Origin: Eledone cirrhosa
Lineage: Eukaryota
Assembly (NCBI GenBank): GCA_964016885.1
Contig: OZ024740.1
Coordinates: 93,248,001-93,312,000, forward strand
Length of the DNA stretch: 64,000 bases
Direction: 5' to 3'
Below, piece by piece: positions 1,870 to 60,017 of this stretch. A program made the position numbers and the translations under genes. Within the stretch, counting starts at the first letter, position 1; each line of letters starts with the position of its first letter. The notes under the pieces are model-generated. The model searched no databases. It had not been told where the DNA came from and saw only the letters and a list, made by a program, of their open reading frames with translations.

Positions 1870-2282
1870 TTAGTCTACGACTTCTGCTATACCATTTGCG
1901 TGGTTTTGTCTTTGCTTGTTATTGTTCTCCACGATCCACATATGACGTATTATCTTCGTTGTTTCGTTCATTGCCAGAGAACGTCTCTATGCACCACCTA
2001 AGAGAACATTAGTCTACGACCTCTTTTATACCATAAACGTGGTTCTGTCTTTGCGCGTAATTGTTTTTCAGCGCTCCTATTAATGACGTATTATTCGTTT
2101 TTTCCCGTTCTTTGCCAGCGAACGTTTCCACGAACCAAAGTATCGTCTTCTTGTCTTCCTCCGCTTGCAACGTTTTTTGAAATATGCAGTTCTGCGTTTA
2201 CAGATTGACTTTGTTAGTTTCAGAAGATCCCGTTAAGGGTGAAAGCAGCGATTCTTTGCTTAAACTTTAATCTGTTATTTTA
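1870..2282 (+). repeat. 3' pseudo-LTR of the PLE with a diverged internal duplication; another copy at ~39767-40030
   Basis: 1870-1995 resembles 2010-2140; ~2027-2280 matches ~39767-40022; ends at (TA)n. Confidence 0.8.
2200..2275 (+). ncRNA. Type I hammerhead-like motif, core CAGAAGA
   Basis: AGTTT-CAGAAGA-T-CCC gttaa GGG-T-GAAA-GCAG..TTGC-T-T-AAACT; distal stem I ACAGATTGA/TTAATCTGT beyond a bulge. Confidence 0.7.
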
Positions 2283-4458: not shown

Positions 4459-4638
4459 ATAGGAACCAGTAAGACCCCGACAGCTGAGCTCAAGCCGTTT
4501 CGACGGCTAATTCGCCGTCGAAACGGCTTGAGCTCAGCTGTCGGGGTCTTACTGGTTCCTATTACCCACTCTACTACCTCAAGTATTGAGTACTTTGGTG
4601 CGTTATGGTCCACCTGGTTCCTTACCACATTTCCTTCG

Positions 4639-4805: not shown

Positions 4806-7599
4806 AATAATTTTGAAATGGATATAGATACCACTGCTACTTATAACTAAAACATAACGGAGACGCAAGTGAATGTAAACCAGGAAATATTAGACGGGAT
4901 CTGGATAAGCTAATAGGAACACTCACGGAAATAATCCATTTCTAATCTCTGATGTAGATAATGATATATGAAGCATCGTTCCTTCTCAATGTGTAATATA
5001 TACAAAGAACAAAAGATCGATGGAAGAATATTATGACTACGTATATTCGCAAAAATAGGGAGATTAATGTGTATCATCCTAAGGTTTCGATTTTCTAACA
5101 TAAGTATTGATTTGAATTATTTCCAGATGCTGCAAACTGTAAAGTTATTCAAAATCTGATTAACAAGGATATGCGTTGCTGGTTGTGTAAAGCTATGTAC
5201 AAGCAAACAGTTAACTGGCCAGATAATTCTATGAAGCACAATTATAAAAACCATGAGCATTTCTCGGAGGAGAAAATATTTTAAGAAATACACATTGAAA
5301 TCAGTAATACAGCACATATATACCGTACGCATATGTCAACAGTATAAAGCATTTCAAACAAACGACGACACAGTAAAACCTAAGGAGATTAGGCAACATA
5401 GATTTTACATAAACAGAAAATAATTTTGAAAACAAATTAAGCACACTGTTGTATATGAAGAATTGGCAGAATCCGTTGCATTGGGTAAAATAAATGGAAT
5501 AATAAAATGTCGACGACGAAAATAAATTCACGTATTTCAGGCTGAGTGCGCAATTTTCGAGAAGTAATATAAGGATGCAGCCGGTAATTGTCTTTATTTT
5601 ATTGTGACCAGTGATATAAACATGTCTCAACTTACCTGAGATTTGAAAACAACACGTATAGACATGATACTAAATACTATTACATATTCAGTCTTGCACT
5701 TTAAAACTAATTCTTAACCAGCAAAAGGAAGAAAACAGTAAAATATTGAGAAAAGAGAAAAGTAAAAAAAAATATATATATATTTGTCTCTAGAACTTGA
5801 TTGGTGAGAGAAAAAAAATATCCAAATACCTCGAAATGAATAATACATAATAAAATACAAATTGGATATACCCATCCAAAATTTAATCAATTTGATTTGT
5901 GTTTACTAAGAGGAATGGAAAAAAAAAATTTGTTCTGATATATTCTATATCTATGACAGCAGAAGCAGGCAAATCGTTAGATAATTAAACATCCAAAATA
6001 GTGATCACACATGCACACACACATGCATATACACATGTATCTATCTATCTACCTATATATATATGATGCCCCCCCCCCCCCCCCCCACCCACCCCTTGCC
6101 AAAAGCCCCTTAACCGTGTCCTGCTAAAAGGATTCCCTCCCTCCCCAACACCACCAATCTCGACATGGAGGTGGAAAAGGAAACTAAAAGGTAAGTGTTC
6201 CTGCCTTTTCTCTCATTAACTCTTCTTCAACAACATGGCGAGTATATTAGTGGGATGTTTGAATGTACGTGGCCTGGGAATGTCCTGGAAACAGGGCCAG
6301 CTTTTAAATGATCTCAGATCACATTGTATAGATGTGATAGGCATCACCGAGTCAATGATTCACGACAAGCAGCAGCTAACCCACATGTTCGATGATTCTG
6401 AGATCTACGCATCTTGCTGTCAGCCAGGTGGTGGATGGGGAGTTGGCGTACTCTTTCGAAAAAACTTGGATGTCAACATACAGACGATTCACTTGGAACC
6501 GGAGGGCAGCCTGGTGGTCCTGGACGTGAATGGTAGTGAAGGTCGAGCTTTCGGACTGGTTGCCCTATATTTCCCGACTGGAACATCACGACCAGAGTTC
6601 TTCAAGCCTGTGCAGCGATTCCTGGGAACGTCTCGCTTCTTAGTGTTAGCGGGGGACTGGAATGGCATCTTAGACGCACGTTGGGACTATGTAGGTACTT
6701 GTGATAATAGAGGAGGGAGGAATAGCCTCAAAAATCTCATCAGCCAATTCCATCTGGCTGATAGATATTGACTAGACTTCCCAAGTGCACCACTGTGGAC
6801 GTGGAACAACCGCACTCGGTCTTCTAGATCGTATTTAGATATATCTTTAATTAGACAGAATGATAAGGAAACATTAAGCTGTCCACAAATGCACATGGTT
6901 GCCTATTGAGACCACAAATTAGTCACCTACGTAGTCAACCTTGATAGAACACATAGACAGGCACCCGGATACTGGAAGCTAAACATGTCGCTCCCGGCGC
7001 GTAAGACCTACTGTAAATGGATCAGCACCTTAGTTAAGTGCCAGTTGACGGGGGTGAACGATAACAACAGGTGGTGAAGCGCTCTGAAGAGATAAATTAG
7101 AATAGAATCGATAGCATTTAGCAAGGATGTAGCTTTAGAAAAAAACAAAACTGTAAAGGAACTGGTAGTTAAAATAGAAGAGGAATTTAGGAATGGCAGT
7201 ACAGCTGACGTGATAGCGGCGAGAACGGCACTAGACCAGTTCTTCAACGTGAAACACGAAGGTTGTATTGTCAGAAGTAGAACAGGTGCTCTAAGAAACG
7301 AGGGAGCCAAAGCTGTTAGCTGGGTCCGAGTGACAGGGGCGAAAAGTGGCAAGACATCCACAATTCGGTCTTTGCAAGACAATGATGGTGCATTATACTT
7401 GAATCCAAGCAGATATGCACGGCCTTCCAGCAGCATTTTACACAACTGTTTGGGCAAAGCAGTAGGTCGAGCGAGGTGATGGACTTCAGCACCTAATTCG
7501 ACGGCGTACCACGACTCTCGAACACGGATGCAGGGGCTGCGAAAGGCCGATCTCAAGCGAGCGGAATAGAATATGCACTAGGCCGCTGCGGGAAACGCA

Positions 7600-9140
7600 T
7601 AAAGGAAAGGAATGTTTCTCTTTGTTGAATATAAGTGACGAATGTGGTTGAGGTATATAAGTACCAATTTAGCGGAGAAGTATTTAGAGAGTTGTAATGT
7701 CGCCACGAGGAACCAGGTTTGGTAGAAAGATATGATAGGGATTTCGACAACGACTTTAGCTTGTTTTTACATTGTTTATTAACCAAGGTTAAGAAGTGAA
7801 TTAGGCTGGCATGCCAAGAGAAATGAAACAAATCAATTAAGATGACAAGAGAAAATACGGGCGACTGGCTGAAGGCGTTTGGCCAGGCTCGTAGGTAATC
7901 TTTTGTCGTTACATATTGTTTGTGCTTACGGAGCAAAAGAACAAGCGTGTTTTACCTTAGCATGGTCCAGCTGCGAGTGATAGCATCCTCAAATCTTTGC
8001 GGGCTATTTCTCCATCAGAACGCGTAGGGATACATCCTCTTCTACTGGCGCTGATTGGCTGACCTGAGCCAAATCACGCACAGAGAATGTATGTCAGACC
8101 GCGGAATGTAGGTCACTACATCACCTCCGAGCAGATTTTTAGCCGAAAATCGTTAACGATGAAGCCGAGGACCCACAGAATATTGAATCAGTAAGAACAA
8201 ATGCTAAAAGAGCACATCAGTGAAAAGATAATTGAGCAGAAAGATGCTTACAAGGAAAGAAAATGAAGCGCGACGGGCCGTGTTGAGCCGCAGTCAAATG
8301 ACTAGCTGTTTTGTAGTTTATACGTGACCACCAAAGGTCTACCAGAAAACAGATAAAGTTTGACATGGGCGAAGTTGCTGTTCTTGCATTAAATGTTAAT
8401 GGTAAGTGTTGTACCAGTAGCTGTGAACGAAGCTATTATGGTAGTTTACCAGTACTGGCAACAAGATGATGGATAGTCGAGAAAATGTTGGCCTACCAGA
8501 TGTATTGCCGAATGTGCTAGGGAGCCAGGAAAAAATGGCTGGTTGCTTTGAAAATAAAAAAAGCAAGTTTAATCTGTAGGTGGGTTGCAGTTCCATGTAA
8601 TACAGCAAAGAAAATGTGTGCGTGCGGTCAATATACAATGATAGAGAGAAATGAATGTTCATATAATACAGTATAAAAAAAATAAATGTCCAAAATAAAT
8701 GCCTGAAAAAAAAAGGAAGAAATAAATAATTGTTTCTTTTCTTTTAACAAAAAGTTCGCTTCATTTTTCTTTGGTAACGCTCTTACTAGGGAGCTAATAG
8801 AGTTGCTGTTGCAAAGTCACAATGAATCTTCTGTGGAGTAGAAGTCGAACGTTGAAGAAACCAGTGTCACCAAATATGGCAGCCACGTCTGACGCCATAA
8901 TGGTGAGAAAACTAATGTCTTAATTTCTCGAGTCCTTGTGGTAACGACACAGAATGTATGGTGGTTGCGTCGGTAAAGTTACAAGCCGTTTCCTGGTGTT
9001 GGTTAATAGTTAGCCATGTGATGCTGCTGAAGGCTGGTACTTGGTAGGGATACATCCTCTTCTACTGGCGCTGATTGGCTGAGCTGAGCCAAATCACGCA
9101 CAGAGAATATATGTGAGCCCGCGGAATGTAGGTCACTACA
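7600..9140 (-). mobile_element. Internally deleted LTR-retrotransposon remnant inserted in the Tx1
   Basis: Direct repeats 8024-8120 and 9044-9140, both starting TGTAGTGACC on the minus strand; purine-rich tract before the LTR at 8121-8130; 7661-8120 matches the solo copy at 62108-62554. Left boundary approximate. Confidence 0.6.
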
Positions 9141-11079
9141 TGCAAATCACTCGGTTTAGATGGTCTACCTTATAAGTTTTGCATAGGCATACCAGACTTG
9201 TTCTCTGGCATCCTCAAAGCGGCCTACTGCAACTGGGAGCAAAACGGGGGGATTCCCAGTTCTTTAGGCAGAGGCGTAGTAACGTTAATCAGGAAAGATG
9301 AGATCAAGAGAGATGAGATAAGCAATTTCTGGCCCATAACTCTGCTCAACACAGAGTTAAAGATTTTGGCCAAGGCGTTAGCAGCAAGGCTGGCGCCTGT
9401 CGTCGAGAACATGGTAGGGGAAGCGCAAACGTGTGCAATCCCAAACAGGTGCATACACGGAAACCTCCACCTCATGCGATACATCATAGCGAGGGTAGGG
9501 TGTAAACCTGTCTTCGGTGGGGCTCTGATCAATTTACATCATTCTTAGGCATTTGATAGGGTCGACCATCAATATTTGGAAGCAGTTCTCAAGGCAGCCG
9601 GCTTCGGTCCCGCCGTCTTCAGAGGCTGGATTGCTGCCATGCACACCAGCATCTGCTCGGCAGTCAAGGTGAATGACTACGTATCAGAGGCATTCTAAAT
9701 CATGCGTTCCATCTTTCAGGGATGCCATCTCTCTTCAATTCTATATGTAGTGACTCTCGAGCCGTTACTGTGGAATTTGGAGCTGTTGCAGGGCGTCCCG
9801 ATCGAACCAGTACTGCGGAAAGCAGCGTCAGGACTATGCCGGCGACATAAACGTAATGGTCTCGAAAACCTCGGAAATCGGAGTAATTGTCAATATATGA
9901 CAGGAATACGAAACGTTGACATGATCAAGACTAAACCCAACCAGGTCTGTAGGTTTGCAACTCGGCACATTGAGAGGCAAACCCATGCTTTCCGACAGTG
10001 TCATTGCGCGCTTGACGGAAGGACCGGTGAAGTTGCTCGGGGTCTGTTTGGTCCGGATCTCCAGGGGGACAGGAACTGGAACGAGGTCACGGCGAAGGTG
10101 TTTGCACTCACACAGAAGTGGGCTGAGTGCAAACTCTCCTTGAAACGTCGAGCGAAGGTGGTGAACACTTACATAGTATCCGTAATCTACTATCGCTTGA
10201 CAGTCGTGCCTTGACCCCGCGAATACCTTAGCAAAGTGGAACACGTACTTTTCAAGTTCCTCTGGAAAAAAACACGCTCCATTGGTGAGGAGATCCATCT
10301 GCTGTCAACACCCTTCTAAGGGATGGCTAGGCATGCCGTGACTGATGATCCGAAACACGCGCTGGGGCTACGTCATCTCCAGGTATTCCTGACCGGTAAA
10401 CCGGTATGGCAGTCGTTTGTAAGACAAGCTCTTCCACAGCTCCTTTCACTAACAGAGCTTCTGTCGTGGGTCACGCAGCGAAGACCGAAAATGGGTGCCT
10501 GGAACACCGAGTGTCTACAGGCGCTCACAGTCCTCTGCCAAGCGGAAACAGCAATCAGCGGAGACTCCACTTCAGCATTCTATAGGGGATTAGTGGAGGA
10601 TAAGCGTGACGACGTTCTCGGGAGCTATAGGCATCGAGGAGGACGAGCAGAACACTCTGTTCGGGAGGACTTTCCGCCCACGGCCTATGGATAACATCAA
10701 GAGTTTTCTGGCCTGGCAGTGCTACATATGAGCTCCACCAGTCCAAGACAAAATCTACAGGCACGGACGCCCTGGCAGAGATCCTCCCAAAAGCAAATGT
10801 CCAAGATGCGAGCAAGCAGGACATCGAAACCATTCTCCACGCAATTGTTCAGTGCCCAGGGGTGACCGAACTGTGGAATGATGTCGACCACCTACTGTCA
10901 CGTGTGGGACGCATCCAGTTGTCAGCCGAGACTATCGTGATGATCACCCCGCTGCCTTCATTTAATAACGGAGGAAAGGCGGTTTTTCTCTGCCTGGTGG
11001 CTATGGCGAAAGAGGAAATATGGTGGACGAGGTTAAAAGGAATGAGGGCAAACACCTTTCTCTCCGGACAGCAACTTAT

Positions 11080-12828
11080 GAACAACAACAACAACAGGGA
11101 CTGAGAAGATGTGTGTCTGCGAGCTGTGTGAGTTGGTTATTTGTTTAAGTTTTGCATTGAAATAATTGTATTTTTTTTGACAAAGGGGTAATAAGACACC
11201 CATATTTCCCCTGCGTAACGGCGACCCCATAATATCTGGGCATTTGGGCCCAAATATTATAACTTTATTTTTTTGGAAAATCCCAACCTGAAAAAAAAAA
11301 AATGAACGAGACACACCATCCAACATTAGGTCTGCCGTGTCAGGATAGCGATTTGAAGGTTGAAAGGAGAGACACAATAACCACAATTCTGGACACAGAG
11401 AAATTAATTACAGACCGAACTTGCAAAATGAAATTACCAACACTACCACGGGCAGCATGAATAAGGACAGAAACAACAGCAACCTCTGTACTCGTTGTTG
11501 TTATAGTCACTTCGAAGAGTGCGACAAACATGTTTGACAGTCAGCAATTGAAGATAAACAGGCGGTAAAAACAGAAATCACAACGGTACCAGCAGCACAA
11601 CTAGTGGACTTTGAAAGAAAACTTGCATTATGACTACTTTCTCGATTGGGAATCAGTGAATTAGTGTTTGATAGCAAGTACAGCAACAAACTGACACAAC
11701 ATCACCGGCAGCAGCAACAACGGCGACGACGACGACGGAAACAGCAGTGTATACATGGCAGAGAGATGGGTTTTTTTAATGACGCCATTTTTCTTGGGGG
11801 CATATTTGTTCAATGCAAAGTTCAAATTGGAATTTCACCTAGGAAGGGTAATTAACAATTAATGTCGACCACTTCAAGAGAAACGGGGTGTGTTTAGAAA
11901 CAAAACAATATAATTTTTTCAAAATACGTTCGCAATTGAACTGTACAAATATCGCAAACAAGCGGCAAAAGAATTCCTGCGACATGTATATTTCCACAAT
12001 AATAATCCAGCTGTCAGCGACGAGTCTCGCTTTCCTTTTCGTCCTTTTCCTCTTCCTTTTTCGTTTCGTCATCGCCACACAGTACATGTCAGGCAAAAAC
12101 CATTTCGTTCACTTCGTCATCAAGCAGCGGTTGAGAAGTGGATGATGTTGTTGCGGTCTTGACAATAACACCTGTGGTGACAAAGCACAAACCAGAATGC
12201 GGAACCTTCTCGTGTGGCGGCCTTCGTGGACGTCCGGTCTGCTCGGTCGGATGCCCGAAAGGATATGTCAAATTCGAATCTGTATACACCCAGAGTTGCG
12301 ACGTGGGAGACACATCGTTTTTTTTTCTTTTTTCTTTATCAACAACCGGAGCTGTAAGACCCGTCCTACATCTCCGGAAGTTACTTCTCATTGCGGGTGA
12401 TGTCAAATCCTATGCGGGTAGTTCCAGGACGATCCGACAAGACTTCGTGCCATTTCCTGCTCAACTTGCCGACGTATCTTCCACAGGATCTGCAGCGGCC
12501 TGACTCGAATACAGAAAAAGAGTCTTCAAGGCTTCGTGTGTGGCTTCTGTCGGAGAATAATGTCGTGCCTACCATCCTCCCTGCAGCGATCTCCATTCGC
12601 CGATGTCAAATCTGCCATGCAAAAATTCGTTCAGACAAACCCCCCTCTTTTGATCTACATATACTCTGCGGTGAAGAGGCGAAGTCATCTTTGAAACATC
12701 TGGCTACGATGCCCTGCATTGGCGATCGAGAGATGCCATCACCAACTCTCACAGTCGCATTTCTAGAGCTTCTGAGGAGTATTCTCAGACGCCTGAGCTG
12801 AATAAAAAACAAAACAAAAAAAAAACAA
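11080..12828 (+). mobile_element. Unclassified 1.75 kb insertion with AATAAA, A-rich tail and TSD
   Basis: CAACTTAT at 11072-11079 and 12829-12836; AATAAA at 12801 followed by an A-rich tail; removing it rejoins the Tx1 frame. Confidence 0.7.
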
Positions 12829-16052: not shown

Positions 16053-16057
<5 letters not shown>

Positions 16058-19000
16058 TTAGTTATGCAAAACAAGACCACAAATTTAACAGGGAAGACAT
16101 TATCAAAAGATTGTCAACATATTGTTGTTTGATGTAAGGAATGTTGAGAATAATACTAACATTTTAATAATAATAATTGTTTCGACTTTAGGCACAAGGC
16201 CAGCAATTATCCGTTTACAATTATTTCGCTACTCCATATATTATTTCTGGATCAGATGACTATATATCATAATTGATCTGGTTCAGTTGAAAATAATTAA
16301 CATATTTAAAAAACAGAGTGGCTTATCGGAACTTCAAAGGAATATAAATTAAAATAGTTTTTTCTACTCTAGGCACAATGACAACAAATAACCAGTACAT
16401 TACTAGTACTTTATTTTATCGATCCCGTAAGAATATTAAAATAATGGGCTAATGTTATATAATATAATGTTCCATATATTGGTTTTTACAATGGTGTCTT
16501 GGTTGCATCAGTTGTCAGCCATAATCAAGCAGTATTCATCTGTCGAGGCTGCATTGTGTGAGATCTTCCTATGGGTAACAAGATGGCTGCCAAAGGGCAT
16601 ATTTACCTTACTAATTAGAGGGTGGTTTCAAGGGAAGTAACTTCTCGAGAGATTATAAATTGTGAGTGTTTATATTTAAGTGCTAATTATTAATTTTTTT
16701 AATTGGGAGACAATGTAGGGGAGGTAAATTATAATTATCAAGTTGTTCATAGCAATTTAACTTATTTGCTACAAGTAAAAATGGGGCTACATGACTAAGT
16801 TGGGTCAAATATTCTATTGGCGAAGGAATTAGCCCTTCGATGTTCACAGCTAATAGTTACCTCCGTTCTATCGATAATCGGTAGAGGTCGTGATATTTTT
16901 TTCGTCCATTGAACGGTTAGGTCCTAGCCACGATATCCCATTTTAGTGAGTGTTGAACGTTTTATAATATACGGTTTTTAATGAGCCTAGCTAGCGATGC
17001 CGAACATCTGTTGCTAGGGTCTCCGAAGGAAAAAGAGAGCGCGTTATAGCGTACCTTAAAAGGGTTAGATGTAGATCCGATATAAAAGCTGGTATTCGAA
17101 GCAGTCTCAACCGTGCACCTATAGACTATGTTGGGCGTCAGGCAGTGTCCATTTAATGGGCATGCATTGGGGTAACGGCAATTGCAGTTGCTTCTGCGGT
17201 TAGTGAGAGTAGTGTTGTTTAACCTAAGCGGTAGGTCCGTGCTAGAAGGATTAGAATGGAGAGGTGTGCTACTAGAGTAATTATTGGTGTAGTGGCGTGG
17301 TGTATTTGATAGGGGTGGTGGTACCGCGGTGTGAGAGTTATACTGTCTTAGCTTATGATAGTTACTGAACGCGATGTGGCAAGCTAGGTTATTTTTATTA
17401 AAGAGTTTGTCATATCTATGGGTGGGGGGAGTGTTTGGATATGGTAGAGAAGAAGCGTTTAGGGCTATTAGTGGCTAGATTAGATGAGAATGGAAGGTTG
17501 AGCCAGGTGATATTTCTATGTCTATTCCTTCTAGGGGTTCTAGTGAAGTTGGTAGGGGCCTTCCTAAGGTTATTATTACCTGGGGATTTGTTATTTGTCA
17601 TCCCATTTCTCATTCCTATTCTAGGGTTGATTTTTAGTTTAGTACTTGGAGTGGGGAGCAGGCCGCTGCCACCCTTAAAGTTCCCTGTATAGGTGGTGTT
17701 ACTGCTAAAATTCCGGCGAATCTGGCTATATGCTAAGGTATTTCTAGTTATAGTGTTAAGTTTATTATGGTGAGTTGCTGTATCATGGCATTTAGTTATG
17801 TAATAAATTGATTGTTTATAACCAGATTCAGAGAGAGCCTTATTATAATATTGTGCGTGGTTTATAAATATCTCCTCATTTGCTGATAGCATTGAGATCC
17901 TATAGGAGATAGATTTGATTACTGCTCTGATGACTGCGGGTGGGTGGTTAGAGTTTGGGCTAATATATGTGAGTATTTCACCTGGTTTATGGTATGGGTT
18001 ATAAATGTTATTGTTGAGATCAAGGGTGACGTCTAGGAAGTTTACTACTTTATGATTCGGCTCGATGGTGATAGAGAGACCGTTATTTTTGAAGAATCTA
18101 TGTAATTGTTTCTTTAGCAAATCGATTCCCCGATTAGTGCAATTGTGGACCGCAAATATGGCGTCGTCCCTGTATATTCCGCCTTGCATGAGTTGGATTT
18201 CGGCTGTGATGTTACGTCATAGGTAAATCCCAACTAAATCGTTGATTTGCGTGGAGTCATTTGAGCCCATCTTAATGTCAAAGTTGTCTGTTCTATCTTT
18301 TCTAGTCCAGAGTGCTCCGTTGAATTCATTGATAGTCTGCCTAGCCATAAGTATGATGTTAATATCATTATTGGTTATGTCTGAGTTGGTGGTGGCAAGG
18401 GCTAGTGCTTTGTTGAGCAGTTCCGGGGTTATTGACGCGTAATAGCTGTCTATGTCAAATTGGATGAACCTCATAGATTGCTTGGACCTTAGATCGGAGA
18501 ACCATCTGATGATTTGGCCGGTGTTGGACCACAACTTGTAGTTGGTATCATCCCGTAGCCCAGGGATTATCCTATCAAGGATGTTCTTACTGATGCGGCC
18601 CAGGTCAGATGTGGTTGGGCTTATGAGTGTAATGGATGGGTTCTCTATAAAGTTTGGCTTGTGATCCTTGAGAGAGAAACTTGGGGTTGTTGGTACATAA
18701 GGGTGGGTAAATCTATCCAGATGCAAGTCCTTAACCAAAGCCTGGGCTTTTCGGTTAAGTACGTTTACACAGGAGGGTGTAGTTTTTTATAGTTTTTATT
18801 GAGTTCTTTAAGAAGGAAAGAGTTATAATTTTTAGGAGTCATGGTGTATAGATTTTTAGTTTTGTCAGACATAACATGAAAGAGGTTGCTATCTTTAAAT
18901 GTTTTCATAGTAGTTGCTAATGTAGTGAGGAAGTTATTCTTGTGTCTATAATGATTTCTGAAGTTAATGCTCCTGACGAAGTTGAATAGATCTTTTTGAA

Positions 19001-19560
19001 AAGCGTCCAGCAGGATGATGTGTGGGGGGTTCTTGCATGTGGCAAATCAATATCTATTTGCTGTACTTCCAGCGTGAGCAACAACTGCACGGTCAAAGTG
19101 GTACGCTTTCCATCTTAATCCTCGGATGAAGGAGTTGGCACTCTGTATTAAAAGTTTAAGGTATGTCTTTCTGTCCGGGATAGGTATGGACTTAAATGAG
19201 ATTCTGAGTTCCTGTTTGCTCAACATGGTGACTTCTAACATTAAATAGCTCGACTACGGGAGCTCACGTATACACAGTTCAAGAGTAACCAATCTTAAAA
19301 AGAGAGATGGAGATAGTAGAGGAGATATGAGATGAGAGATTGGTGAGTTAGCTAGAAGCCAAAGCTTAAAGGCATGTGCTCAATGTGCAATATGCAGTAG
19401 AAAGCAGCTAGGTGGCTGGGTTCATGCAGAAGTTAGGTGCGCAGAGATGGAAATATTCATTAGTTAAGCAAAACAAGACCGCACATTTTACAAGGAAGAC
19501 ATTATTAAAAGATTGTCAACCTCTTTTAGTTTGATGTAAGAAAAGTAGAGAATAATAATA
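16053..19560 (-). mobile_element. Near full-length Penelope-like element with direct pLTR segments
   Basis: RGLRWKAYHF, FIQFDIDSYYASI, KMGSNDS, GIYRDD, VNFLDVTLDL, SNHPP, NIVYRCTV..FYIGSTSNPFKVRY; 16053-16170 repeated at 19453-19560. Confidence 0.92.
16213..16332 (-). ncRNA. HHR-like motif with ~95 nt stem II in the PLE 3' pLTR
   Basis: GTT-CCGATAA-GCCACTC...GAGTAGC-GAAA-TAATTG-TA-AAC; the sister copy at 57889-58007 has CCGATGA and ACAATTGT. Confidence 0.65.
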
Positions 19561-19585: not shown

Positions 19586-19768
19586 TTGTTTCTACTTTAG
19601 GCACAAGGTCAGCAATTACCCAGTACATTACTGGTACTTTATTTTATCGACCCCGTAAGGATGAAAGGCAAAGTTAACCTAGGCAGGATTTGAACTCAGA
19701 ATGTAAAGGGACGTAACTATTCTAGAAAGCATGGCGTCCAACCCTCTACCGATACTGCCAATTCACCT
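19586..19768 (-). mobile_element. tRNA-derived SINE
   Basis: A box TGGCAGTATCGG, B box GAGTTCAAATCC, central CTTTGCCTTTCATCCTTACGGGGTCGATAAAAT; multiple copies in the window. Confidence 0.85.
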
Positions 19769-19825
19769 ATTAAAATCTCTACCCTCATTATAGAATAAAA
19801 ATACCTTATGTGCATGAATAAATAA

Positions 19826-20011
19826 TTGTTTCTACTTTAGGCACAAGGCCAGCAATTACCCAGTGCATTACTGATACTTTATTTTATCGATCCCGTAAGG
19901 ATGAAAGGAAAAGTCAACCTCGGCGGGAATTGAATTCAGATCGTAAAGGGACGTAACTATGCTGGAAAGCATGACGTCCGACCCACTACCGATACTGCCA
20001 ATCCACCGCCC
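19826..20011 (-). mobile_element. tRNA-derived SINE with TSD
   Basis: Same family; TGTGCATGAATAAATAA duplicated on both flanks. Confidence 0.88.
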
Positions 20012-20339
20012 TTGTGCATGAATAAATAAGGTCGTGTTATATGCTGTGCCCTCACCTCTTTGATTATGTTATATACATGAATATACCTTAAATTTATACT
20101 ATATTTATACATTATGTTGATCAATGTAATGACGATAATAATTTGTATTAATTATACTATTGATATAATTTGTCACGCAGTTTCTAGGTCAAATTTGACG
20201 GAGTGTTTGGTCATTTGTCAAGTCACATAACAGTCTTCTAATAGATAATATTTCTGATAATATGCGCGGTTTCTAGCAATTCTGAACTATTAAACTGCTC
20301 AAAATGTTTGGCTCTCTCATTACATTAGCCCCAAATATT

Positions 20340-28757: not shown

Positions 28758-31700
28758 TTTCTTTATTAACCACAAAGGTTTACATAAAGTAGACATTAAG
28801 GACAGTGCAGGACAATACATGACGGTACAAATGGCCATTTCTGCGTGTAAGAAACAAAAACAGACGATGTAACAGAAAAATAACAATGAAAAATTCCCCA
28901 ATTGGGGGAGACTTCGGAGGGACATTTGTGGAGAAAGCACAGTAAAAGGCCACAGTGACCCTGAACACCAGGGCAAGTGCCCTCTCCCAGTTTTCCACCT
29001 TTAATTTACAGATATATACTCAGAGTAGGCCCATTCACTCGGGCCATTCTTGCTTCTCTCACCCATCTTTCAACAAAATGCTGGGAAGAGAGCACTTCCC
29101 TCTCTACTCTGATTTTCCTTTTGAAATAAAATTTGAAAAAGTCAATCAGAGCATCACCGAAGAGGTAATGCTCGTCTTCAGCCCTTTCAAACGTGTCCAC
29201 CATACTATCTTTTTCGCCATGGCCAACAGACAGATAAACACTGCCTGCCCTTCCCGGCTAAAGAAGAAGGGCGGGGCAATCCTCACGATGGACTCAGGTG
29301 ATAGCCGGATCCGTCCTACACGCGACAGCAGGTGTTCGACATAAACCCACAAGTCAAACATTTTCGGACACTGGACGAGTCCGTGCAGGACGGTTTCGTC
29401 GCCCTGCACGCATCTCGGACATGCCCGGCTGACGGCACCTCCATGCCTGTAGAGTTTATCCCGAATTGGCAAGGCTCCTCGGTAGCACTGCCAGGCCAGA
29501 TATTTCTGGAAGTTGTCCATAGGCCCTGGCCCGAAAGTTCTACCGAAGAGATTGGCTAGTTCATTTTTGTCGACGCCTAGAATTTCCCCAAGTACGTCGT
29601 CGCTCTTCCCCCTCCACTAATCCTCTATAGAACGCCGAGGTGGAGTTTCCACCGATCACATTGCCCGATTGGTCGAGGGCTGTGAGCGCCTGAAGACATT
29701 CCAGTCTCCAAGCGCTCCCTCTCGGTCTTCGCTTGACCCAGGACTGCAGCTCCGTCAAGGAAACGAGCTGGGGAAATACGTGTCTAGCAAACAGCGACCA
29801 CACCTGATCACCGTCGAGGAAGAGGTGGAGATGTCGTAGCCTGAGCGCGTGCCTGCGCATCGTCAGCCACGTCATGCCAGCCCTCCACGTAGCGGGTGTT
29901 GACAACAGATGGACCGCCTGAACATCGCCTCAACGTCTCCAGTTTGTGCAGTAATGGCTCGAGAGTTAATACGTACAAGAGGGACGAGAGGGGACATCCT
30001 TGGCGGACCGAGCGCATGATGTTAAACGGTTCCGACTGGTGACCGTTCACTCTCACCACAGAGCAGATGTCGCTGTGCATGGCAGCGATCCAGCCTCTGA
30101 AGACGGGCTCAAAGCCAGCCGCCCTCAGGACTGCCGCTAGGTAACGATGGTCGACCCTATCGAAAGCTGTCGACTGATCTAAATTGATCAAGGACCCACC
30201 CGTGCCAGGTTTCCTAGCTACCCTTTCTACGATGTATCGCATGAGGTGGAGGTTGTCGTGGATGGATCTGTCGGGAATGGCGCATGCCTGCGCCTCTCCC
30301 ACCAGACCACCAACGACAAGCGCCAACCTCTTTACTAGCACCTTGGCCAAAATCTTGAACTCTGTGTTTGGCCTAAAATTATCTATGTTATCCCCCTTGT
30401 TCGGATACTTTCTCTGCAGCGCCACCGCTCCTCGGCTCACAGAGTGGGTATTCTCCCGTTCTGTTGCCAGTTGCAGTAGACGTCCGCCAAGAGGCCTCCG
30501 AACAAGTCTGGCATCTGTACGTACAATCATAGGGCAGACCATCCAAACCAGGCGATTTACCCCTTCTGCAGCCAGTCATTGTCTCCCGTACTTCAGCGTC
30601 TGTAACCGGCTTTTTGCAACATCCCGCCTCAGTGGTCAAGAACCGCGGCAGCCCGTCGAGGTAGACACTAAAGTCCATCCCTCGATCCGGCCCGCCGCTG
30701 CCCCCGATGAGTTGAGCGAAGTGTCGCTGAAAAGCTTCACACATTTGCCCGTGATCGAGTAGCATGCGCCGGTCGTGGTCCACTAAAGACCGGGTCGTAG
30801 CTTTGTTGCCACGACGCGCCTCCGTCACTCGGGCCCATTCAACGGCTTTCGTCCCCTCGTGTCTGAGAGCACGCACTCTAGCTCTGACAACGCAGCCTTC
30901 GTGCTTTGCATTGAAGTATTGGTCAAGCGCCAATTTCGCCGCAAGTACGTCGGTCGCGATGCCTTTGCAAAACGCCTCGTCTAATTTTCTAACTAATTCT
31001 CCCTCTGCTCTATTTTTCTCTATTGCTAAAGCCTTACTACACCTAATGGACTCTATTCTAATTGCTCTTTTCACAGCAAACCACCATTTGTTGTTGAGGA
31101 TGGCCCCCGTCAACGCCCGCTTAACTAGTACGCTAATCCGGTCTCTGTAGGCCTTGCGCGCTGGTAAGGAGGCATTTAGCTTCCAGTAGCCGGGTCCTCG
31201 TCTATGAAGCCTATCTAAGTAAAGCACACAGATCACGAATTGTGGACAGCCTATGCTAGACCTATCTATTTTCCTACAAAATACTCTATCTAGATATTAT
31301 CTGGATGACCCTATGCGATTTGTCCAAGTCCACATTGGTTCATTCGTGAAATCCAATCGGTACCTGTCAGACAGTTCAAAACGCCTGAGCAGGTTGGTGA
31401 GACTCTTGCACCCTCCTCCCCTATGCACTAATCCCACACAGTCCCAGCGTGTATCTAAGATCCCGTTCCAGTCGCCCACTAACACTAAAGAGCGGGATGT
31501 TCCAAGAAAGGTCCCCAGACGCCGGAAGAAATCTGGCCGCCCTGCTCCGATCGGAGTATAGACGGCCACTAACGTGAAAGCTTGCCCGTCTCCGCTGGTC
31601 ATGTCCAGCACCACCAACTTACCTTCTCGGTCAAGGAAGATGGCCCGTACGTCGAAATCCAAACCTCTCCGAAAAAGCACAGCAATCCTCCCCACAATCC

Positions 31701-34122: not shown

Positions 34123-34126
<4 letters not shown>

Positions 34127-34256
34127 GGCATGCTTGCTTGGAACAGCAAGAACCCTCCGATACGTCCTGAATATCTGAGGCTGCAGGTAGTGGCTTGACA
34201 TTCAATCCAACGGACTTTCCAGTTAACCAACATCAATGACTGAGATTCAAGGAATA
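34123..34256 (+). mobile_element. Dong/R4 LINE 3'-end fragment in (AAT)n
   Basis: KACLLGTARTLRYVLNI plus 3' UTR; reverse complement of ~34322-34455. Confidence 0.85.
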
Positions 34257-34283
34257 ACAACAATAATAATAATAATAATAATA

Positions 34284-34316
<33 letters not shown>

Positions 34317-34321
34317 GTTGT

Positions 34322-35257: not shown

Positions 35258-35258
<1 letters not shown>
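34322..35258 (-). mobile_element. 5'-truncated Dong/R4 LINE (zinc knuckle plus restriction-like endonuclease)
   Basis: CRICGEREETVAHIVSEC and RPDLVVVDKEKRSCLIVDVACP; (ATT)n on both sides. Confidence 0.92.
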
Positions 35259-35337
<79 letters not shown>

Positions 35338-35338
35338 G

Positions 35339-39770: not shown

Positions 39771-40030
39771 CCATAAACGTGGTTCTGTCTTTGCGCGTAT
39801 TTGTTTTTCGCCGCTCCTATTAATGACGTATTATATTCGTTTTTTCCCGTTCTTTGCCAGGGAACGTTTCCACGAATCAAAGTATCGTCTTCCTGTCCTA
39901 CACCGGCTGCAACGTTTTTTGAAATATCCACTTCTGCGTTTAGAGATTGACTTTGTTAGTTTCAGAAGATCCCGTTAAGTGTGAAAACAGCGATTTTTTG
40001 CTTAAACTTTAATCTGTTATTTTATTAAAT
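39767..40030 (+). repeat. Solo pLTR of the PLE at 187-2282, with HHR-like motif at 39944-40017
   Basis: Matches ~2027-2280 and retains the CAGAAGA core and AGTTT/AAACT stem. Confidence 0.85.
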
Positions 40031-42829: not shown

Positions 42830-42830
<1 letters not shown>

Positions 42831-43895: not shown

Positions 43896-44647
43896 GAAAC
43901 ACACAGATACATGCGGACACACACATATATACATGAATGCATCCGCACCCAACTGTGAGTTAAGGGTGCCAACTTCACCGATGTTGCTCAATGAATGACT
44001 GGGACAGACCAATTCAGTTGAACTAGACTGAACCAGTATCAGAGTTAAAAATACATTATGAAGAGAGAAGAAACATTTAGATATAATTAGTAATAAAATG
44101 TATCATACCTAAACTGCTCCTAAATTCCTCGACTACGTAGTTTCGTGGCATAAACAAAAACAATATATCAAAGATATAGAGTCCTTGCGAGGTCTGCCGA
44201 CTTATCAAGAGGATATCTCATTTTACTAGTCTCAAGAACGCGTCTACACGACGTGAGAAAGAATCCCAAAAGGCGGAGGGGGAGATAGTCACGCGATACT
44301 TCTCGCCTTCTTCACTACCTCTTCTACGGCCTCGATATGAATACCCCCTCCGCCTCCGTGGTATTTTCTTCGTGGTTATAAGAGGCTTAGCTCTGTTTCT
44401 CGACTGTTATATCGCGTGACTATCTCCCCCTCCGCCTTTTGGGATTCTTTCTCACGTCGTGTAGACGCGTTCTTGAGACTAGTAAAATGAGGTATCCTCT
44501 TGATAAGTCGGCAGACCTCGCAAGGACTCTATATCTTTGATATATTGTTTTGTTTATGCCACGAAACTACGTAGTCGAGGAATTTAGGAGCAGTTTAGGT
44601 ATGATACATTTTATTACTAATTATATCTAAATGTTTCTTCTCTCTTC

Positions 44648-54951: not shown

Positions 54952-55601
54952 AGTTTATATATCTAGTTTATATAATTATTACATAATTATTGGAAAACGC
55001 AATACACGGACGAAAGCATGGTAGAGGTATTTAAATGTATTCTATTTTCTCCTAGTTTATTTTAAACCTAATTCTGCTTAGTTGACTGTATCTAGGCGAT
55101 TACGCTGTCGAAATATTCGATAAATATCCCGCTACGGCCGACGCGAAGCGCTAGTTTTGGTTATTTGTCGGAGATTCCTTCATAGAAGCCTCATTTGTAT
55201 AGCCCGGTCTATTCGATTTCATATATAGTTACTTATGCTAATTGGGAGAGGAAATAGTATATATTTTATCTCGTGATTCTATAGACATATTTTATGATAT
55301 ATAGCTCTGATTGTTTAATTTATTAATTTTTCATTGAGCCAAAAAGTGATCAGTTGCAAAACACGTATATGTATGTGTATGTATATATATATATGTAAAC
55401 TTTTATATGTAATAATCTCCCACTAGGTTGAGATACAAATTTGGCTGTATTGTGCTGTGCTTTCTATCAAAAATGCCACCAGTCGTAAGCAACTACCACA
55501 CCCCTTCCAACTTGACCGCGACTACGTCACGATTTTTAGCCATTTTGAAATGAATACTTGGCGCGATCGTTTTGGAAAATTTAATGTCTAGATATGAGCG
55601 A

Positions 55602-55689
55602 GCTTCCTGAAGAATCCGGCGCTCGAGTTTATATAGTTATTACATAATTATTGGAAAACTAAAAACACGGACGAAACCATAGTAGAGGT
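55602..55689 (+). ncRNA. Type I HHR with canonical CUGAAGA core and ~59 nt stem II
   Basis: GCTTC-CTGAAGA-ATCCG...CGGAC-GAAA-CCATAG-TA-GAGGT. Confidence 0.75.
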
Positions 55690-56259
55690 ATTTAAATGTA
55701 TTCTATTTTCTCCTAGTTTATTTTAAACCTAATTCTACTTAGTTGACTGTATGTAGGCGATTACGCTGTCGAAATATTCGATAAATTTCCCGCTACGGCC
55801 GACGCGAAGCGCTAGTTTTGGTTATTTGTCGGAGATTCCTTCATAGAAGCCTCATTCGTATAGCCTGGTCTATTCGATGTCATATATAGTTAATTATGCT
55901 AATTGGGAGAGGAAATAGTATATATTTTATCTTGTGATTCTATAGACATGTTTATGATATATAGCTCTGATTGTTTAATTTATTAATTTTTCATTGAGCC
56001 AAAAAGTGACCAGTTGCAAAACACGTATATGTATGTGTATGTATATATATATGTAAACTTTTATATGTAATAATCTCCCACTAGGTTGAGATACAAATTT
56101 GGCTGTATTGTGCTGTGCTTTCTATCAAAAATGCCACCAGTCGTAAGCAACTACCACACCCCTTCCAACTTGACCGCGACTACGTCACGATTTTTAGCCA
56201 TTTTGAAATGAATACTTGGCGCGATCGTTTTGGAAAATTTTATGTCTAGATATGAGCGA

Positions 56260-56347
56260 GCTTCCTGAAGAATCCGGCGCTCGAGTTTATATAATTATTA
56301 CATAATTATTGGAAAACTCAAAACACAGACGAAACCATAGTAGAGGT
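56260..56347 (+). ncRNA. Second HHR copy of the 660 bp repeat
   Basis: Same fold; inner GAGTTT/AAACTC and ATAATTAT/ATAATTAT hairpin. Confidence 0.7.
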
Positions 56348-57376: not shown

Positions 57377-58228
57377 TTCAAAAGTAACCAGTTTTAAAGA
57401 GAGAGATGGAGATAGTAGATGAGATATGAGAGGAGAGATTGGTGAGTTAGTTAGAAGCCAAAGCGTAAAGGCATGTGCTCAATGTGCAATATGCAGTAGA
57501 ATGCAGCTATGTGGCTGGGTTCATGCAGAGGTTAGGTGCGCTGAGCTGGAAATATTCATTAGTTAAGCAAAACAAGGCCACAAACATCACAAGGAAGACA
57601 TTATTAAAAGATTGTCAACATATTTTAGTTTGATGTAAGGCATGTAGAGAATAATAATAATAATTGTTTCTATTTTAGGCACAAGGCCAACAATTACCCA
57701 GTGCATTACTGGTACTTTATTTTATAGACCCCGTAAGGATGAAAGGCAAAGTCAAACTCGGCGGGATTTGAACTCAGATCGTAAAGGGACGTAACTATGC
57801 TGGAAAGCATGGCGTCCGACGCTCTACCGATACTGCCAATCCACCGCCCTAGAGAATAATAATAATAATATTAATAATAATAATGTCCGTTTACAATTGT
57901 TTCGCTACTCCATATCATATTTCTGGATCAGATGATTATATATCATAATTGATCTGGTTCAGTTGAAAATAATTAACATATTTAAAAAACAGAGTGGCTC
58001 ATCGGAATGTTAATTATTTTCAATTGAACCTGATCAATTATGATATATAATCATCTGATCCAGAAATATTATATGGAGTAGCGAAACAATTGTAAACGGA
58101 CATTATTATTATTAATATTATTATTATTGTTCTATACATTCCTTACATCAATCTAAAATATGTTGACAATTTTTTAATAATGACTTCCTTGTGAAGGTTG
58201 TGGCCTTGATTTGCTTAACTAATGAATA
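57372..58228. mobile_element. Solo fold-back pLTR of the 16053-19560 PLE family in (TA)n, with HHR at 57889-58007 (minus)
   Basis: 57372-57660 matches ~19270-19560; 58007-58228 is an inverted copy of ~57555-57980 without the SINE. Confidence 0.85.
57664..57849 (-). mobile_element. tRNA-derived SINE with TSD
   Basis: Same family; TAGAGAATAATAATAATAAT duplicated. Confidence 0.9.
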
Positions 58229-58786: not shown

Positions 58787-59765
58787 CGAGTAACCTTTGA
58801 AGTGTAGTGACCGCTGGATAGCTACCATTACTCATACATCTCGCCTCCTCAAACCACCTCTTCTATGTCTTTGATATGAATACCCCTCCGCCTCCATCGT
58901 ATTTTTTCAGGGTTATAAGGGTCTTAGCTCTGTTTCTTGACGGCTGTATCACGTGATTGATTCTCCCTTCACCTTTTCGAGATTCTATCTCGCGCATTAC
59001 ACACGTTTTTTTGAAATCCTTAATGAGGTATCCCCTTGATAAGTCGGCAGAACCTCACAAAACTCTATATCTCTATGATCTAGTGTTTTTGCATAATATT
59101 CACGAAATTACGTAGTCGGGGACTATAGAAGCAGCTAGGTATGATATATCTTATTACTAATTATATCTAATGTTTCTACTCTCTTCATAATGTACTATAT
59201 AGGTCTGATACTGAATCAGTCTAATCCATTCGGATTGTTTTGTCCCAGCTATTCATAGAGCAACATCGGTTGAGGTTGGCACCACTAACGCAGGGATATA
59301 TGTGGATATATTCATGTATATGTATATGTCCGCATGTATCTGTGTGTTTCTCTCTATATATTGTTTATAACTCCATTTGGTCGAGTAACCTTTGAAGTGT
59401 AGTGACTGCTGGATAGCCACCATTACTCATACTTCTCGCCTCCTCAAACCACCTCTTCTCCGGCTTTGATATGAATACTCCCTCCGCCTCCGTGGTATTC
59501 TTTTCAGGGTTATAAGGGCCTTAGCTCTGTTTCTTGACGGCTGTATCACGTGATTGACTCTCCCTCCGCCTTTTCAAGATTCTATCTCGCGCATTACAGA
59601 CGGGTTTGAAATCCTTAATGAGGTATCCCCTTGATAAGTAGGCAGAACCTCACAAAAACTCTATATCTCTATGATCTAGTGTTTTTGCATAATATGCCAC
59701 GAAACTACGTAGTCGGGGACCATAGAAGCAGCTAGGTATGATATATCTTATTACTAATTATATAT
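58787..59765 (+). repeat. ORF-less tandem repeat, ~595 bp x 1.6, with HHRs at 59031-59122 and 59626-59719 (retrozyme-like)
   Basis: Units start at 58787 and 59382; TCCCC-TTGATAA-GTnGGCA...TGCCAC-GAAA-CTACGTAG-TC-GGGGA. Confidence 0.88.
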
Positions 59766-59894: not shown

Positions 59895-60017
59895 TGCTTA
59901 CAAATGTTTCAACAATAGTTATACAGCCTAGTTATGCTATGTGCAAATTGGTAATTATTTTTAATTATTTGCAGTAACTGAATTTTCAAATGCTGCTTCT
60001 ACCGTTTCCGCAGAGCA
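59895..60017 (-). ncRNA. Type I HHR-like motif, core CUGCGGA, ~96 nt stem II, within TA-flanked element ~59850-60240
   Basis: TGCT-CTGCGGA-AACGGTAG...CTATTGTT-GAAA-CATTTG-TA-AGCA. Confidence 0.65.

What the first reader, a model, noticed from the sequence alone, without database searches (positions are those of the whole stretch)
16213..16332. Recurrent very long stem II plus palindromic stem III architecture
Seen: stem II spans ~95 nt here and at 57889, ~96 nt at 59895, and 56-63 nt in the 44/59 kb and 55 kb families, usually with internal hairpins. Stem III is a self-complementary 6-10-mer (ACAATTGT, ACTACGTAGT, ACCATGGT, ACCGGT). This copy belongs to a nearly complete PLE. Known: minimal PLE HHRs have short stems and palindromic stem III thought to allow dimeric cleavage. 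Inference: this is a distinct long-arm subclass, and the arm might bind RT or regulate cleavage.
Basis: partly seen in the sequence, partly recalled or inferred. Interest (0 to 1): 0.7.

Follow-up and report, generated by a model that had tools for sequence, protein, structure and literature searches.

The report
Long-armed hammerhead ribozymes in Penelope retrotransposons
Several jumping-gene families in this animal genome carry a self-cutting RNA motif with an unusually long side arm; in two families the arm seems to fold back and brace the catalytic core, a variant that standard searches miss, although the flagged copy itself is mutated and probably dead.

Summary
The motif is real and lies on the minus strand: a type I hammerhead (HHR) in the 3' pseudo-LTR of a decayed Hydra-clade Penelope-like element (PLE). 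Four repeat families (A, B, C, E) have 56-96 nt between the two halves of the core. The same search on 12 other Hydra-PLE loci gave 20 perfect-core HHRs with 11-24 nt.

The 'long stem II' is a 4-10 bp basal helix plus a 43-80 nt AU-rich insert. The 6-10 nt AC..GT stem III is ordinary for Hydra HHRs.

New here: in families B and C the strand after basal stem II is complementary (6 bp) to the strand 1 nt upstream of stem I. The register is the same, two pairs differ compensatorily between families, and chance is 0.3-0.6% per family. This predicts a stem I-stem II pseudoknot capped by a fast-evolving hairpin.

The flagged copy (family A) is the weakest case. Its core is mutated (U4C, G8A), its insert folds no better than shuffles, and it shows no pseudoknot. 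RT binding by the arm has no support.

Verdict: new variant of a known kind, activity untested; interest 0.55.

The parts
16213..16332 (-). Family A long-arm type I HHR, the flagged copy: stem I 3 bp, core CCGATAA (U4C, G8A), 95-nt arm, stem III ATAATTGT, site GUA at 16216; predicted inactive
16228..16322 (-). The 95-nt arm: 9 of 10 basal pairs (one C.A mismatch shared with the 57.9 kb copy) plus a 75-nt, 79% AU insert; whole arm z -0.58 against shuffles
16055..16212 (-). Downstream part of the family A pseudo-LTR: about 40 nt of a SINE-like repeat's 3' end, (TTA)n, then a tail ending at (TA)n 162 nt after the cleavage site
16773..19235 (-). Decayed Hydra-clade PLE ORF (RT plus C-terminal GIY-YIG; RWK, DKT, CxCX5C); stops and frameshifts; 45% identity to two Argonauta hians proteins over the RT
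   Evidence: motifs defined in PMC8557442
19341..19767 (-). 5' pseudo-LTR remnant (SINE-like insert, tail, 5' leader) of the same element; 87% identical to 57440-57845; no HHR retained here
57890..58007 (-). Family A second copy: core CCGATGA (U4C only), 95-nt arm, ACAATTGT; 5' flank cut by an inversion junction, leaving 2 bp of stem I
58008..58225 (+). Inverted, 5'-truncated family A copy that starts inside the arm and ends at (TA)n
44488..44581 (+). Family B HHR: pseudoknot strand TGAGGT (44488-44493), stem I TCCTC/GAGGA, core TTGATAA (U3-A8), 56-nt arm with partner ACCTCG (44515-44520), stem III ACTACGTAGT, site GUC
44126..44220 (-). Family B inverted copy, 57-nt arm; pseudoknot strand mutated (TGAGAT)
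59024..59122 (+). Family B copy, first of a 593-nt tandem pair; 61-nt arm; stem I TCCCC/GGGGA; pseudoknot TGAGGT/ACCTCA
59619..59719 (+). Family B copy, second of the tandem pair; 63-nt arm; best-folding insert (z -4.4)
54962..55028 (+). Family C first unit, 5'-truncated inside the arm; stem III AGCATGGT
55595..55689 (+). Family C HHR in a ~660-nt tandem array: pseudoknot strand TGAGCG (55595-55600), stem I GCTTC/GAGGT, core CTGAAGA, 59-nt arm with partner CGCTCG (55620-55625), stem III ACCATAGT
56253..56347 (+). Family C third unit, 59-nt arm, one basal pair broken, pseudoknot strands intact
59895..60017 (-). Family E HHR: core CTGCGGA (A6C), 8-bp basal stem II, 96-nt arm, stem III ACATTTGT; single copy, 5' flank cut by an inversion junction

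Best explanation
These are type I hammerhead ribozymes from pseudo-LTRs of (TA)n-targeting Penelope-like elements: Hydra clade shown for family A, inferred for B, C and E. Their loop 2 has expanded into an internal loop plus a distal hairpin.

Shown in sequence: core boxes, stems I-III, position in the pseudo-LTR, and purifying selection on the HHR part of family B.

Inferred: in B and C the 5' strand of the internal loop pairs with the strand just upstream of stem I. This pseudoknot would hold stems I and II side by side, as in pseudoknotted hammerheads of other origins. The distal AU-rich hairpin only closes the loop and is free in sequence. The palindromic stem III completes the fold in a dimer of two tandem copies, so cleavage would process tandem PLE transcripts upstream of the tail and ORF leader.

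The flagged family A copy is a dead relic (G8A). In A the arm shows only the basal helix, so its extra length may be a tolerated expansion.
For: Family B: 55 of 55 cells paired over 14 pairs in 4 copies; one two-sided change in stem I and two one-sided changes; slid controls 30-58% paired. Between B subfamilies, HHR plus pseudoknot strands are 54/59 identical against 53/81 upstream (Fisher p 2.6e-4) and 26/42 in the distal hairpin (p 4.2e-4).

Pseudoknot: top-ranked helix between the 30-nt 5' flank and the arm in 5 of 6 B and C copies, always 1 nt from stem I. GAGGU/ACCUC in B and GAGCG/CGCUC in C differ by two compensatory pairs. Chance at that register is 0.3-0.6% per family; B defined the register, so C (0.3%) is the independent test.

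HHR-compatible folds lie 1.3-2.7 kcal/mol above the MFE for B and C before counting the pseudoknot or dimer helix. Stem III dimers give -12.9 (B) and -6.4 (A, 57.9 kb) kcal/mol, while all monomer hairpins are unfavourable.

Literature: pseudoknots between stems I and II raise hammerhead rates by orders of magnitude and occur in about 40% of examples (PMC3088659 section 7).
Against: No experiment. Only 4+2 full copies in B and C, and they are not independent. The letter-shuffle control is not significant (99/500). No pseudoknot in A (one copy with a flank of uncertain origin), and E is untestable. One B copy has lost a pseudoknot pair. With 30-nt flanks, the MFE of most copies is an alternative fold. 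B and C have no linked ORF in the window. The present C copies have a broken palindrome (dimer +1.4 kcal/mol) and an A.C mismatch at 10.1-11.1. In the one reconstituted PLE, HHR cleavage needed protein and was dispensable for insertion (PMC11167929).
Confidence: 0.55

Rival explanations
1. Neutral expansion. PLE hammerheads lack loop-loop contacts, so loop 2 tolerates AU-rich insertions and duplications; hairpins arise from duplicated palindromes, and the B/C complementarity is chance or inherited without function.
For: Inserts are 67-79% AU and do not align between families (one of 18 cross-family comparisons at p 0.013, reverse strand). A and E inserts fold no better than shuffles. The C hairpin is a directly repeated palindrome. 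The distal hairpin of B drifts like flank (p 0.70). Short-arm HHR-like motifs coexist in the window.
Against: Same-register 6-bp complementarity with two compensatory differences in two families. The strands involved are nearly invariant between B subfamilies. The B insert keeps its hairpin in both subfamilies.
Confidence: 0.25
2. The arm is a binding site for the element's RT/EN protein or a host factor, which chaperones or gates cleavage.
For: The Anolis PLE hammerhead cleaves only with the element's protein (PMC11167929). B and C share a shape: basal helix, asymmetric loop, two stacked distal helices.
Against: No conserved sequence in the distal arm within B or between families. Hydra elements elsewhere manage with 11-24 nt spacers. 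In Anolis the protein-engaged RT start site lies downstream of the HHR, not in stem II.
Confidence: 0.1
3. The B/C pairing is an off-switch or alternative fold that keeps the ribozyme from cutting. In family A, core nucleotides can likewise slip into a UCCG/CGGA pairing, or five bases at the stem I/core junction were lost in the master copy.
For: Both A copies share TTCCGAT, complementary to CGGA just after the cleavage site. All copies include sequence upstream of the site, so uncleaved RNA was the template, as in Anolis. Alternative folds win in most context MFEs.
Against: In B and C the pairing leaves core, stem I and stem III free and matches the activating topology described for type II hammerheads (PMC3088659). 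The B core and stems are under purifying selection.
Confidence: 0.07
4. The insert is a retained spliceosomal intron whose removal restores a short stem II (PLEs keep introns; in D. virilis one abuts the HHR).
For: Known PLE intron/HHR overlap (PMC4209133). The A arm has a GT..CAG pair about 67 nt apart.
Against: No good donor in A (GTTTTT, GTTAAT). No shared GT..AG frame in B, C or E; B and C inserts are only 43-50 nt. I inspected the dinucleotides only and ran no splice-site model.
Confidence: 0.03

Closest known systems
Hydra-clade PLE hammerheads (Craig et al. 2021, PMC8557442, File S2; includes Hydra-1_Obim of Octopus bimaculoides)
   Same: Type I, in the 3' pseudo-LTR of a (TA)n-targeting RT-EN element; stem III starts AC and ends GT with 3-4 bp, sometimes a full 10-nt palindrome (Penelope-1_SK); stem I 3-7 bp.
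   Different: Loop 2 is 3-10 nt in the published Hydra rows, against a 43-80 nt insert here. No pseudoknot is noted there. Core variants U3-A8 (B), U4C (A) and A6C (E) occur here.
Minimal/dimeric metazoan PLE hammerheads (Cervera and de la Pena 2014, PMC4209133)
   Same: Pseudo-LTR location, palindromic helix III for dimer cleavage (up to 10 nt in Aedes and Saccoglossus), U3-A8 covariation, bulged base in helix II, copies in opposite strands 100-700 bp apart.
   Different: The Fig. S3 rows I read show loops of about 3-9 nt; loop 1 is called poorly defined and no stem I-stem II pseudoknot is proposed.
PLE-X1_sMoe and PLE-X1_sTam hammerheads of spike mosses (PMC8557442 File S2, marked as deviating from canonical)
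   Same: Long loop 2 (35 and 29 nt; spacer about 54 nt for sMoe) with hairpin potential. By eye, the start of the sMoe loop is complementary over 5 nt to a strand upstream of stem I.
   Different: EN-less Chlamys-related plant elements. The arm was tabulated but not analysed. Arms here reach 96 nt.
Pseudoknotted hammerheads (Perreault et al. 2011, PMC3088659)
   Same: Watson-Crick pairing between the strand leaving stem II and nucleotides at the end of stem I holds the stems parallel; shown there to raise rates more than 20- to 100-fold.
   Different: The tested example is a metagenome-derived type II ribozyme with an open stem II. Here the topology is type I, the strand is part of an internal loop capped by a hairpin, and stem III needs a dimer.
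Non-LTR retrozymes (PMC7229834, listing only; bioRxiv 10.64898/2026.07.22.740005)
   Same: Families B (593 nt) and C (~660 nt) are ORF-less tandem units with one type I HHR each, in the reported 51-972 bp range; proposed to be non-autonomous PLE derivatives.
   Different: Those were found with canonical or minimal descriptors. Transcription and circular RNA are untested here.

Membership tests
Type I hammerhead ribozyme | Core C3-G8 (or U3-A8), U4, G5, A6, A9 and GAAA | tested here: met
   Met in 4 of 4 B and 2 of 2 complete C copies
Type I hammerhead ribozyme | Intact core in the flagged copy (family A) and in E | tested here: not met
   16.3 kb: U4C and G8A; 57.9 kb: U4C; E: A6C. U4C and A6C are natural low-activity variants (PMC3088659); an unpaired 3-8 position abolishes activity (PMC11167929)
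Type I hammerhead ribozyme | Three helices around the core and an NUH site | tested here: met
   B: 55/55 cells paired with one compensatory change. A: stem I 3 bp, stem II 9 of 10 bp, site GUA. C has an A.C mismatch at 10.1-11.1
Type I hammerhead ribozyme | Match to an Rfam hammerhead model | tested here: not met
   No hammerhead family among 51 matches at E<=1; probably because of the insert (inference)
Type I hammerhead ribozyme | Self-cleavage at the predicted site | not testable with these tools
   Needs an in vitro assay or 5'-OH / cyclic-phosphate end mapping
Hydra-clade PLE (family A element) | C-terminal GIY-YIG after RT, single ORF, under about 3 kb | tested here: met
   tblastn tiles RT then EN over 19235-16773, with stops and frameshifts
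Hydra-clade PLE (family A element) | RWK, DKT and CxCX5C motifs | tested here: met
   LRWKAY, SDKTKN and CNCRYPNAC in the frame translations; definitions
Hydra-clade PLE (family A element) | C-terminal CxxC and CxH motifs, CCHH absent | tested here: inconclusive
   That part is decayed in this copy; present in the closest named relative P0005
Hydra-clade PLE (family A element) | (TA)n target, pseudo-LTRs, inverted 5'-truncated partner | tested here: met
   Three copies end at the same base before (TA)n; direct repeat at both ends; inversion at 58.0 kb
Hydra-clade PLE (family A element) | Placement in an RT phylogeny with reference clades | not tested
   Reference proteins from the paper were only read, not run
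Hydra-clade PLE (families B, C, E) | Linkage to a Hydra ORF | tested here: inconclusive
   No tblastn match near them. (TA)n ends, AC..GT stem III and, for C, a Hydra-1_Obim-like upstream motif are only suggestive
Pseudoknotted hammerheads | Helix of 4 or more bp between a stem II extension and the stem I end, with covariation | tested here: inconclusive
   6 bp in 5 of 6 B/C copies and cross-family compensation; too few independent sequences; absent in A
Non-LTR retrozyme (B, C) | Tandem ORF-less units each with a type I HHR | tested here: met
   B: 2 units, 593-nt period; C: 3 units, 658-661 nt
Non-LTR retrozyme (B, C) | Transcription, self-cleavage and circular RNA | not testable with these tools
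   No RNA data available

The most novel reading that the evidence does not exclude
Animal Penelope-like elements hold an overlooked, possibly widespread class of long-arm hammerheads in which an internal loop of stem II forms a pseudoknot with the strand before stem I. This would give a tertiary-stabilised, protein-independent dimeric ribozyme. Short-spacer descriptors miss it, so some elements reported to lack hammerheads or to have only 'half cores' 35-50 nt apart (8 Naiad families, one from Octopus) may carry ribozymes of this kind.
Probability: 0.3. Interest if true: 0.75.

Novelty: new variant of a known kind. Interest (0 to 1): 0.55.

Why it matters
Why PLEs keep hammerheads that barely cleave in vitro is an open question: activity is low even as dimers (PMC4209133), and cleavage is protein-dependent and dispensable in the one reconstituted element (PMC11167929). 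A natural PLE hammerhead with a predicted Watson-Crick tertiary contact offers a clean break-and-rescue test of whether selection acts on cleavage rate. Counts of ribozymes in invertebrate genomes, and claims that some PLE clades lack them, may need revisiting. If the arm is only tolerated junk, the result is a modest addition to PLE annotation.

Tried and rejected
Rfam scan: only microsatellite-driven miRNA-like matches, all below gathering scores. Pfam did not recognise the three main ORF pieces at its cut-offs; homology came.

My first guess of the Nematis clade (recalled) was dropped once the Hydra motifs were read.

Common origin of the inserts: not detectable. Only B vs B aligned; one of 18 cross-family comparisons reached p 0.013.

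Pseudoknot in A and E: none at the B/C register. A weak all-AU pairing in A, seen by eye, was not counted. Pseudoknot in short-arm HHRs of other hosts: 14 of the 20 were tested; 13 had runs of 4 or fewer, and one had 5 using the stem II strand itself.

Chance-like descriptor hits were dropped because they lie in no repeat family with a PLE layout: 11101, 12123, 21585, 25658, 60622, 63237 and 61812, 63196, 20349.

A nearer, short-arm core inside the A arm (CTGATCC) was rejected because it has no stem I. Equal-length small ORFs over B and C were judged coincidence, since the 59.6 kb copy has an early stop.

Lunse et al. 2017 and Arkhipova et al. 2017 were not held; either may describe long-arm variants. 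No eukaryotic genome collection was available and the viral and metagenome contig collections stayed unchecked, so copy numbers and wider covariation are unknown. Supplements of bioRxiv preprints could not be seen.
Full report
Setting. The window is repeat-rich animal DNA, 37.8% GC, full of (TA)n and decayed retrotransposons. The best named relatives of the local reverse transcriptase are from Argonauta hians (45% identity, E 6e-77), so the host is probably an octopod (inference).

The flagged motif. On the minus strand, 16332-16213 reads as a type I hammerhead: stem I GTT/AAC, core CCGATAA, a 95-nt spacer, GAA, ATAATTGT and site GUA. A second copy at 58007-57890 is 96% identical over 122 nt and has CCGATGA and ACAATTGT. 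The spacer is not a long helix. Its ends pair over 9 of 10 positions, with probabilities of 0.9 or more when folded alone, apart from one C.A mismatch. The 75-nt insert is 79% AU and folds no better than shuffles (z -0.6 and +0.4). The flagged copy has lost the 3-8 pair (G8A) on top of U4C, so it should be inactive: single changes at 3 or 8 abolish cleavage in the Anolis element (PMC11167929), and U4C lowers activity (PMC3088659). Both copies share TTCCGAT, which can pair with CGGA after the site. Either the master carried U4C with a competing pairing, or it had lost five bases at the stem I/core junction; I cannot decide between these.

Which element. An RT-EN frame runs from about 19235 to 16773 with stops and frameshifts. 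It has RWK, DKT and CxCX5C motifs and a (TA)n target, the marks of the Hydra clade (PMC8557442 section 11). The HHR lies about 440 nt after the last matched codon and 162 nt before the (TA)n end. The stretch after the HHR recurs at the element's 5' end. In the 57.9 kb copy the HHR, that tail and the same 5' leader are contiguous, and three copies stop at the same base before (TA)n.

Recurrence. Three more families have long spacers. B has four copies (56-63 nt, core U3-A8, palindrome ACTACGTAGT; one inverted pair, one 593-nt tandem pair). C has three ~660-nt tandem units, two complete (59 nt). E has one copy (96 nt, A6C). Long hits exceed block shuffles: 8 against a mean of 1.45 in 40 shuffles, and 5 perfect-core hits against 0.39 in 100. 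With a stricter filter chosen afterwards it is 4 against 0. Several loose hits are noise, and family copies are not independent. Short-arm motifs also occur, read by eye: 2221 and 39963 (+, after a Hydra fragment, 13 nt), 45267/44.9 kb (the ACCGGT motif, 13 nt, stem I broken) and 43133 (-, 18 nt).

Outside control. One scan of the prokaryotic genome collection returned 12 loci encoding Hydra-type proteins, evidently animal DNA inside such assemblies (inference). The descriptor allowing up to 150 nt found 21 hits in 7 of the 12 loci. Twenty have perfect cores and spacers of 11-24 nt; one has an imperfect core and 94 nt, and I take it as chance. In 6 loci the HHR lies within about 220 nt after the protein match. 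Their stems III are mostly AC..GT, 4-10 nt, several palindromic. Published Hydra HHRs agree (loop 2 of 3-10 nt; File S2). The palindrome is therefore ordinary and the long arm unusual. The nearest precedent is two spike-moss PLE-X motifs with 29-35 nt loops in the same table.

Selection. In B, 55 of 55 cells over 14 pairs are paired, including a U-A to C-G change in stem I between the 44 and 59 kb subfamilies. The letter-shuffle control is not significant with four sequences (99/500), while slid registers give 30-58%. Identity between subfamilies is 54/59 in the HHR elements, 53/81 upstream, 26/42 in the distal hairpin and 32/40 downstream (Fisher p 2.6e-4 and 4.2e-4). The distal hairpin keeps its shape (z -1.7 to -4.4) but not its sequence. 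Inserts of different families do not align.

A predicted pseudoknot. In B the strand right after basal stem II (ACCUCG/A) is complementary to UGAGGU, which ends 1 nt before stem I. In C, CGCUCG is complementary to UGAGCG at the same place. The two differ by two compensatory pairs. This helix ranks first among flank-arm helices in 5 of 6 copies; the sixth has a point mutation. Random flanks give it in 0.3-0.6% of trials at that register. Since B suggested the register, C (0.3%) is the fair test. The topology, a strand leaving stem II pairing with nucleotides at the end of stem I, is the one described for pseudoknotted hammerheads, where breaking it cuts rates 20- to over 100-fold (PMC3088659). 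It was not found in A, whose only informative flank follows a SINE remnant, and E is truncated.

Mechanism, most likely. A tandem PLE or retrozyme-like transcript brings two hammerheads together. Palindromic stems III pair across copies (-12.9 kcal/mol for B, while monomer hairpins are unfavourable). In B and C the pseudoknot aligns stems I and II and the distal hairpin caps the loop. Cleavage frees a unit upstream of tail and ORF leader. Shown: anatomy, linkage in A, selection in B, complementarity in B and C. Inferred: folding, dimer cleavage, any rate effect. Against: alternative folds win in most 30-nt-flank MFEs, although HHR-compatible folds of the bare motifs are within 1.3-5.0 kcal/mol; the present C copies are damaged; and cleavage was dispensable for insertion in the Anolis system. 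Rivals are neutral expansion (0.25; the likelier reading for A alone), protein binding (0.10), an off-switch (0.07) and an intron (0.03).

Literature seen. PMC4209133: parts 1-2 of 4 of the text and parts 1-2 of 3 of the supplement. PMC8557442: passages, section 11, supplement parts 2 and 52, and search hits. PMC11167929: passages and the second half of the main text. PMC3088659: passages and section 7. PMC6765202, PMC10085705 and PMC13725137: passages ('long helix II' in the last means 6-8 bp). bioRxiv 10.64898/2026.07.22.740005: parts 1-2 of 5. PMC7229834: listing only. Eight searches surfaced no description of 56-96 nt arms or of this pseudoknot in animal PLEs. Two key papers were not held, so absence from print is not established. 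Hammerhead numbering is from established knowledge. The label 'SINE-like' for the 200-nt repeat rests on its layout and a B-box-like motif (recalled), not on a call.

Verdict. Observation partly confirmed and interpretation partly supported. This is a new variant of a known kind: long-arm Hydra-type PLE hammerheads, with a testable pseudoknot in two families. The flagged copy is a dead and least informative member. Interest 0.55.

Noticed in passing
window 55570-55597 and 56228-56255 (+): Just upstream of the family C HHR lies ATGTCTAGATATGA, the two stem II strands of the published Hydra-1_Obim hammerhead with the loop missing (2 matches, 0.02 expected). ATCGTTT also precedes it in both, by eye. 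Family C may be a chimera of a decayed short-arm HHR and a long-arm HHR. Found after the fact.
   Followed up: partly
window 2221-2266 (+) and 39963-40008 (+): Short-arm hammerhead-like motif at the 3' end of another Hydra element (ORF piece 233-1264), with U4A in both copies, a 3-bp stem II and a 4-bp stem III with a 9-nt loop. Position 4 is thus altered in two Hydra families here.
   Followed up: partly
window 45267-45300 (+) and about 44880-44913 (-): Inverted pair with a Hydra-style short motif (TTGATAA, 13-nt spacer, ACCGGT), but stem I is unpaired in both copies; the sequence after the site is instead complementary over 8 nt to a strand about 95 nt upstream.
   Followed up: partly
window 43133-43100 (-), element 42830-43892: Short-arm HHR-like motif (CTGAGGA, 6-bp stem II, 18-nt spacer) after a GIY-YIG fragment with a CxxC linker, i.e. 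a non-Hydra PLE (clade not tested).
   Followed up: partly
window 57659-57862, 19587-19767, 16173-16209: A 200-nt SINE-like repeat sits in the (TTA)n tract of the family A pseudo-LTR in three copies, so a SINE-carrying subfamily kept transposing; other copies of the repeat at 19817-20013 and 46218-46417.
   Followed up: partly
window 58007/58008, 60021/60022, 54962: 5' truncation or inversion junctions fall within a few bases of the HHR core or cleavage site, or inside the arm, in families A, E and C; possibly RT stalling at the structure.
   Followed up: no
window 4462-4624, 58476-58617, 60822-60990: Another (TA)n-flanked family with long fold-back ends; one copy runs into a third Hydra EN fragment (61005-61426). 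No hammerhead was found for it by my descriptors.
   Followed up: partly
L001-L012: Twelve prokaryotic genome records hold Hydra-type PLEs, seven with hammerheads, most likely animal host DNA left in the assemblies. One L009 hammerhead (2902) matches the published Hydra-2_aMil motif by eye.
   Followed up: partly
window 6220-11104 (+), 29146-33902 (-), 34123-38600: Decayed non-LTR retrotransposons: two related endonuclease-RT elements, and a duplicated element with a C-terminal restriction-like nuclease (families judged from motifs by eye, not tested).
   Followed up: no
PMC8557442 supplement, end of Naiad_Obim: By eye, the 3' end of this published Octopus Naiad has GAAAC followed about 25 nt later by CTGATGA, the order of a type III hammerhead. 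Not analysed.
   Followed up: no
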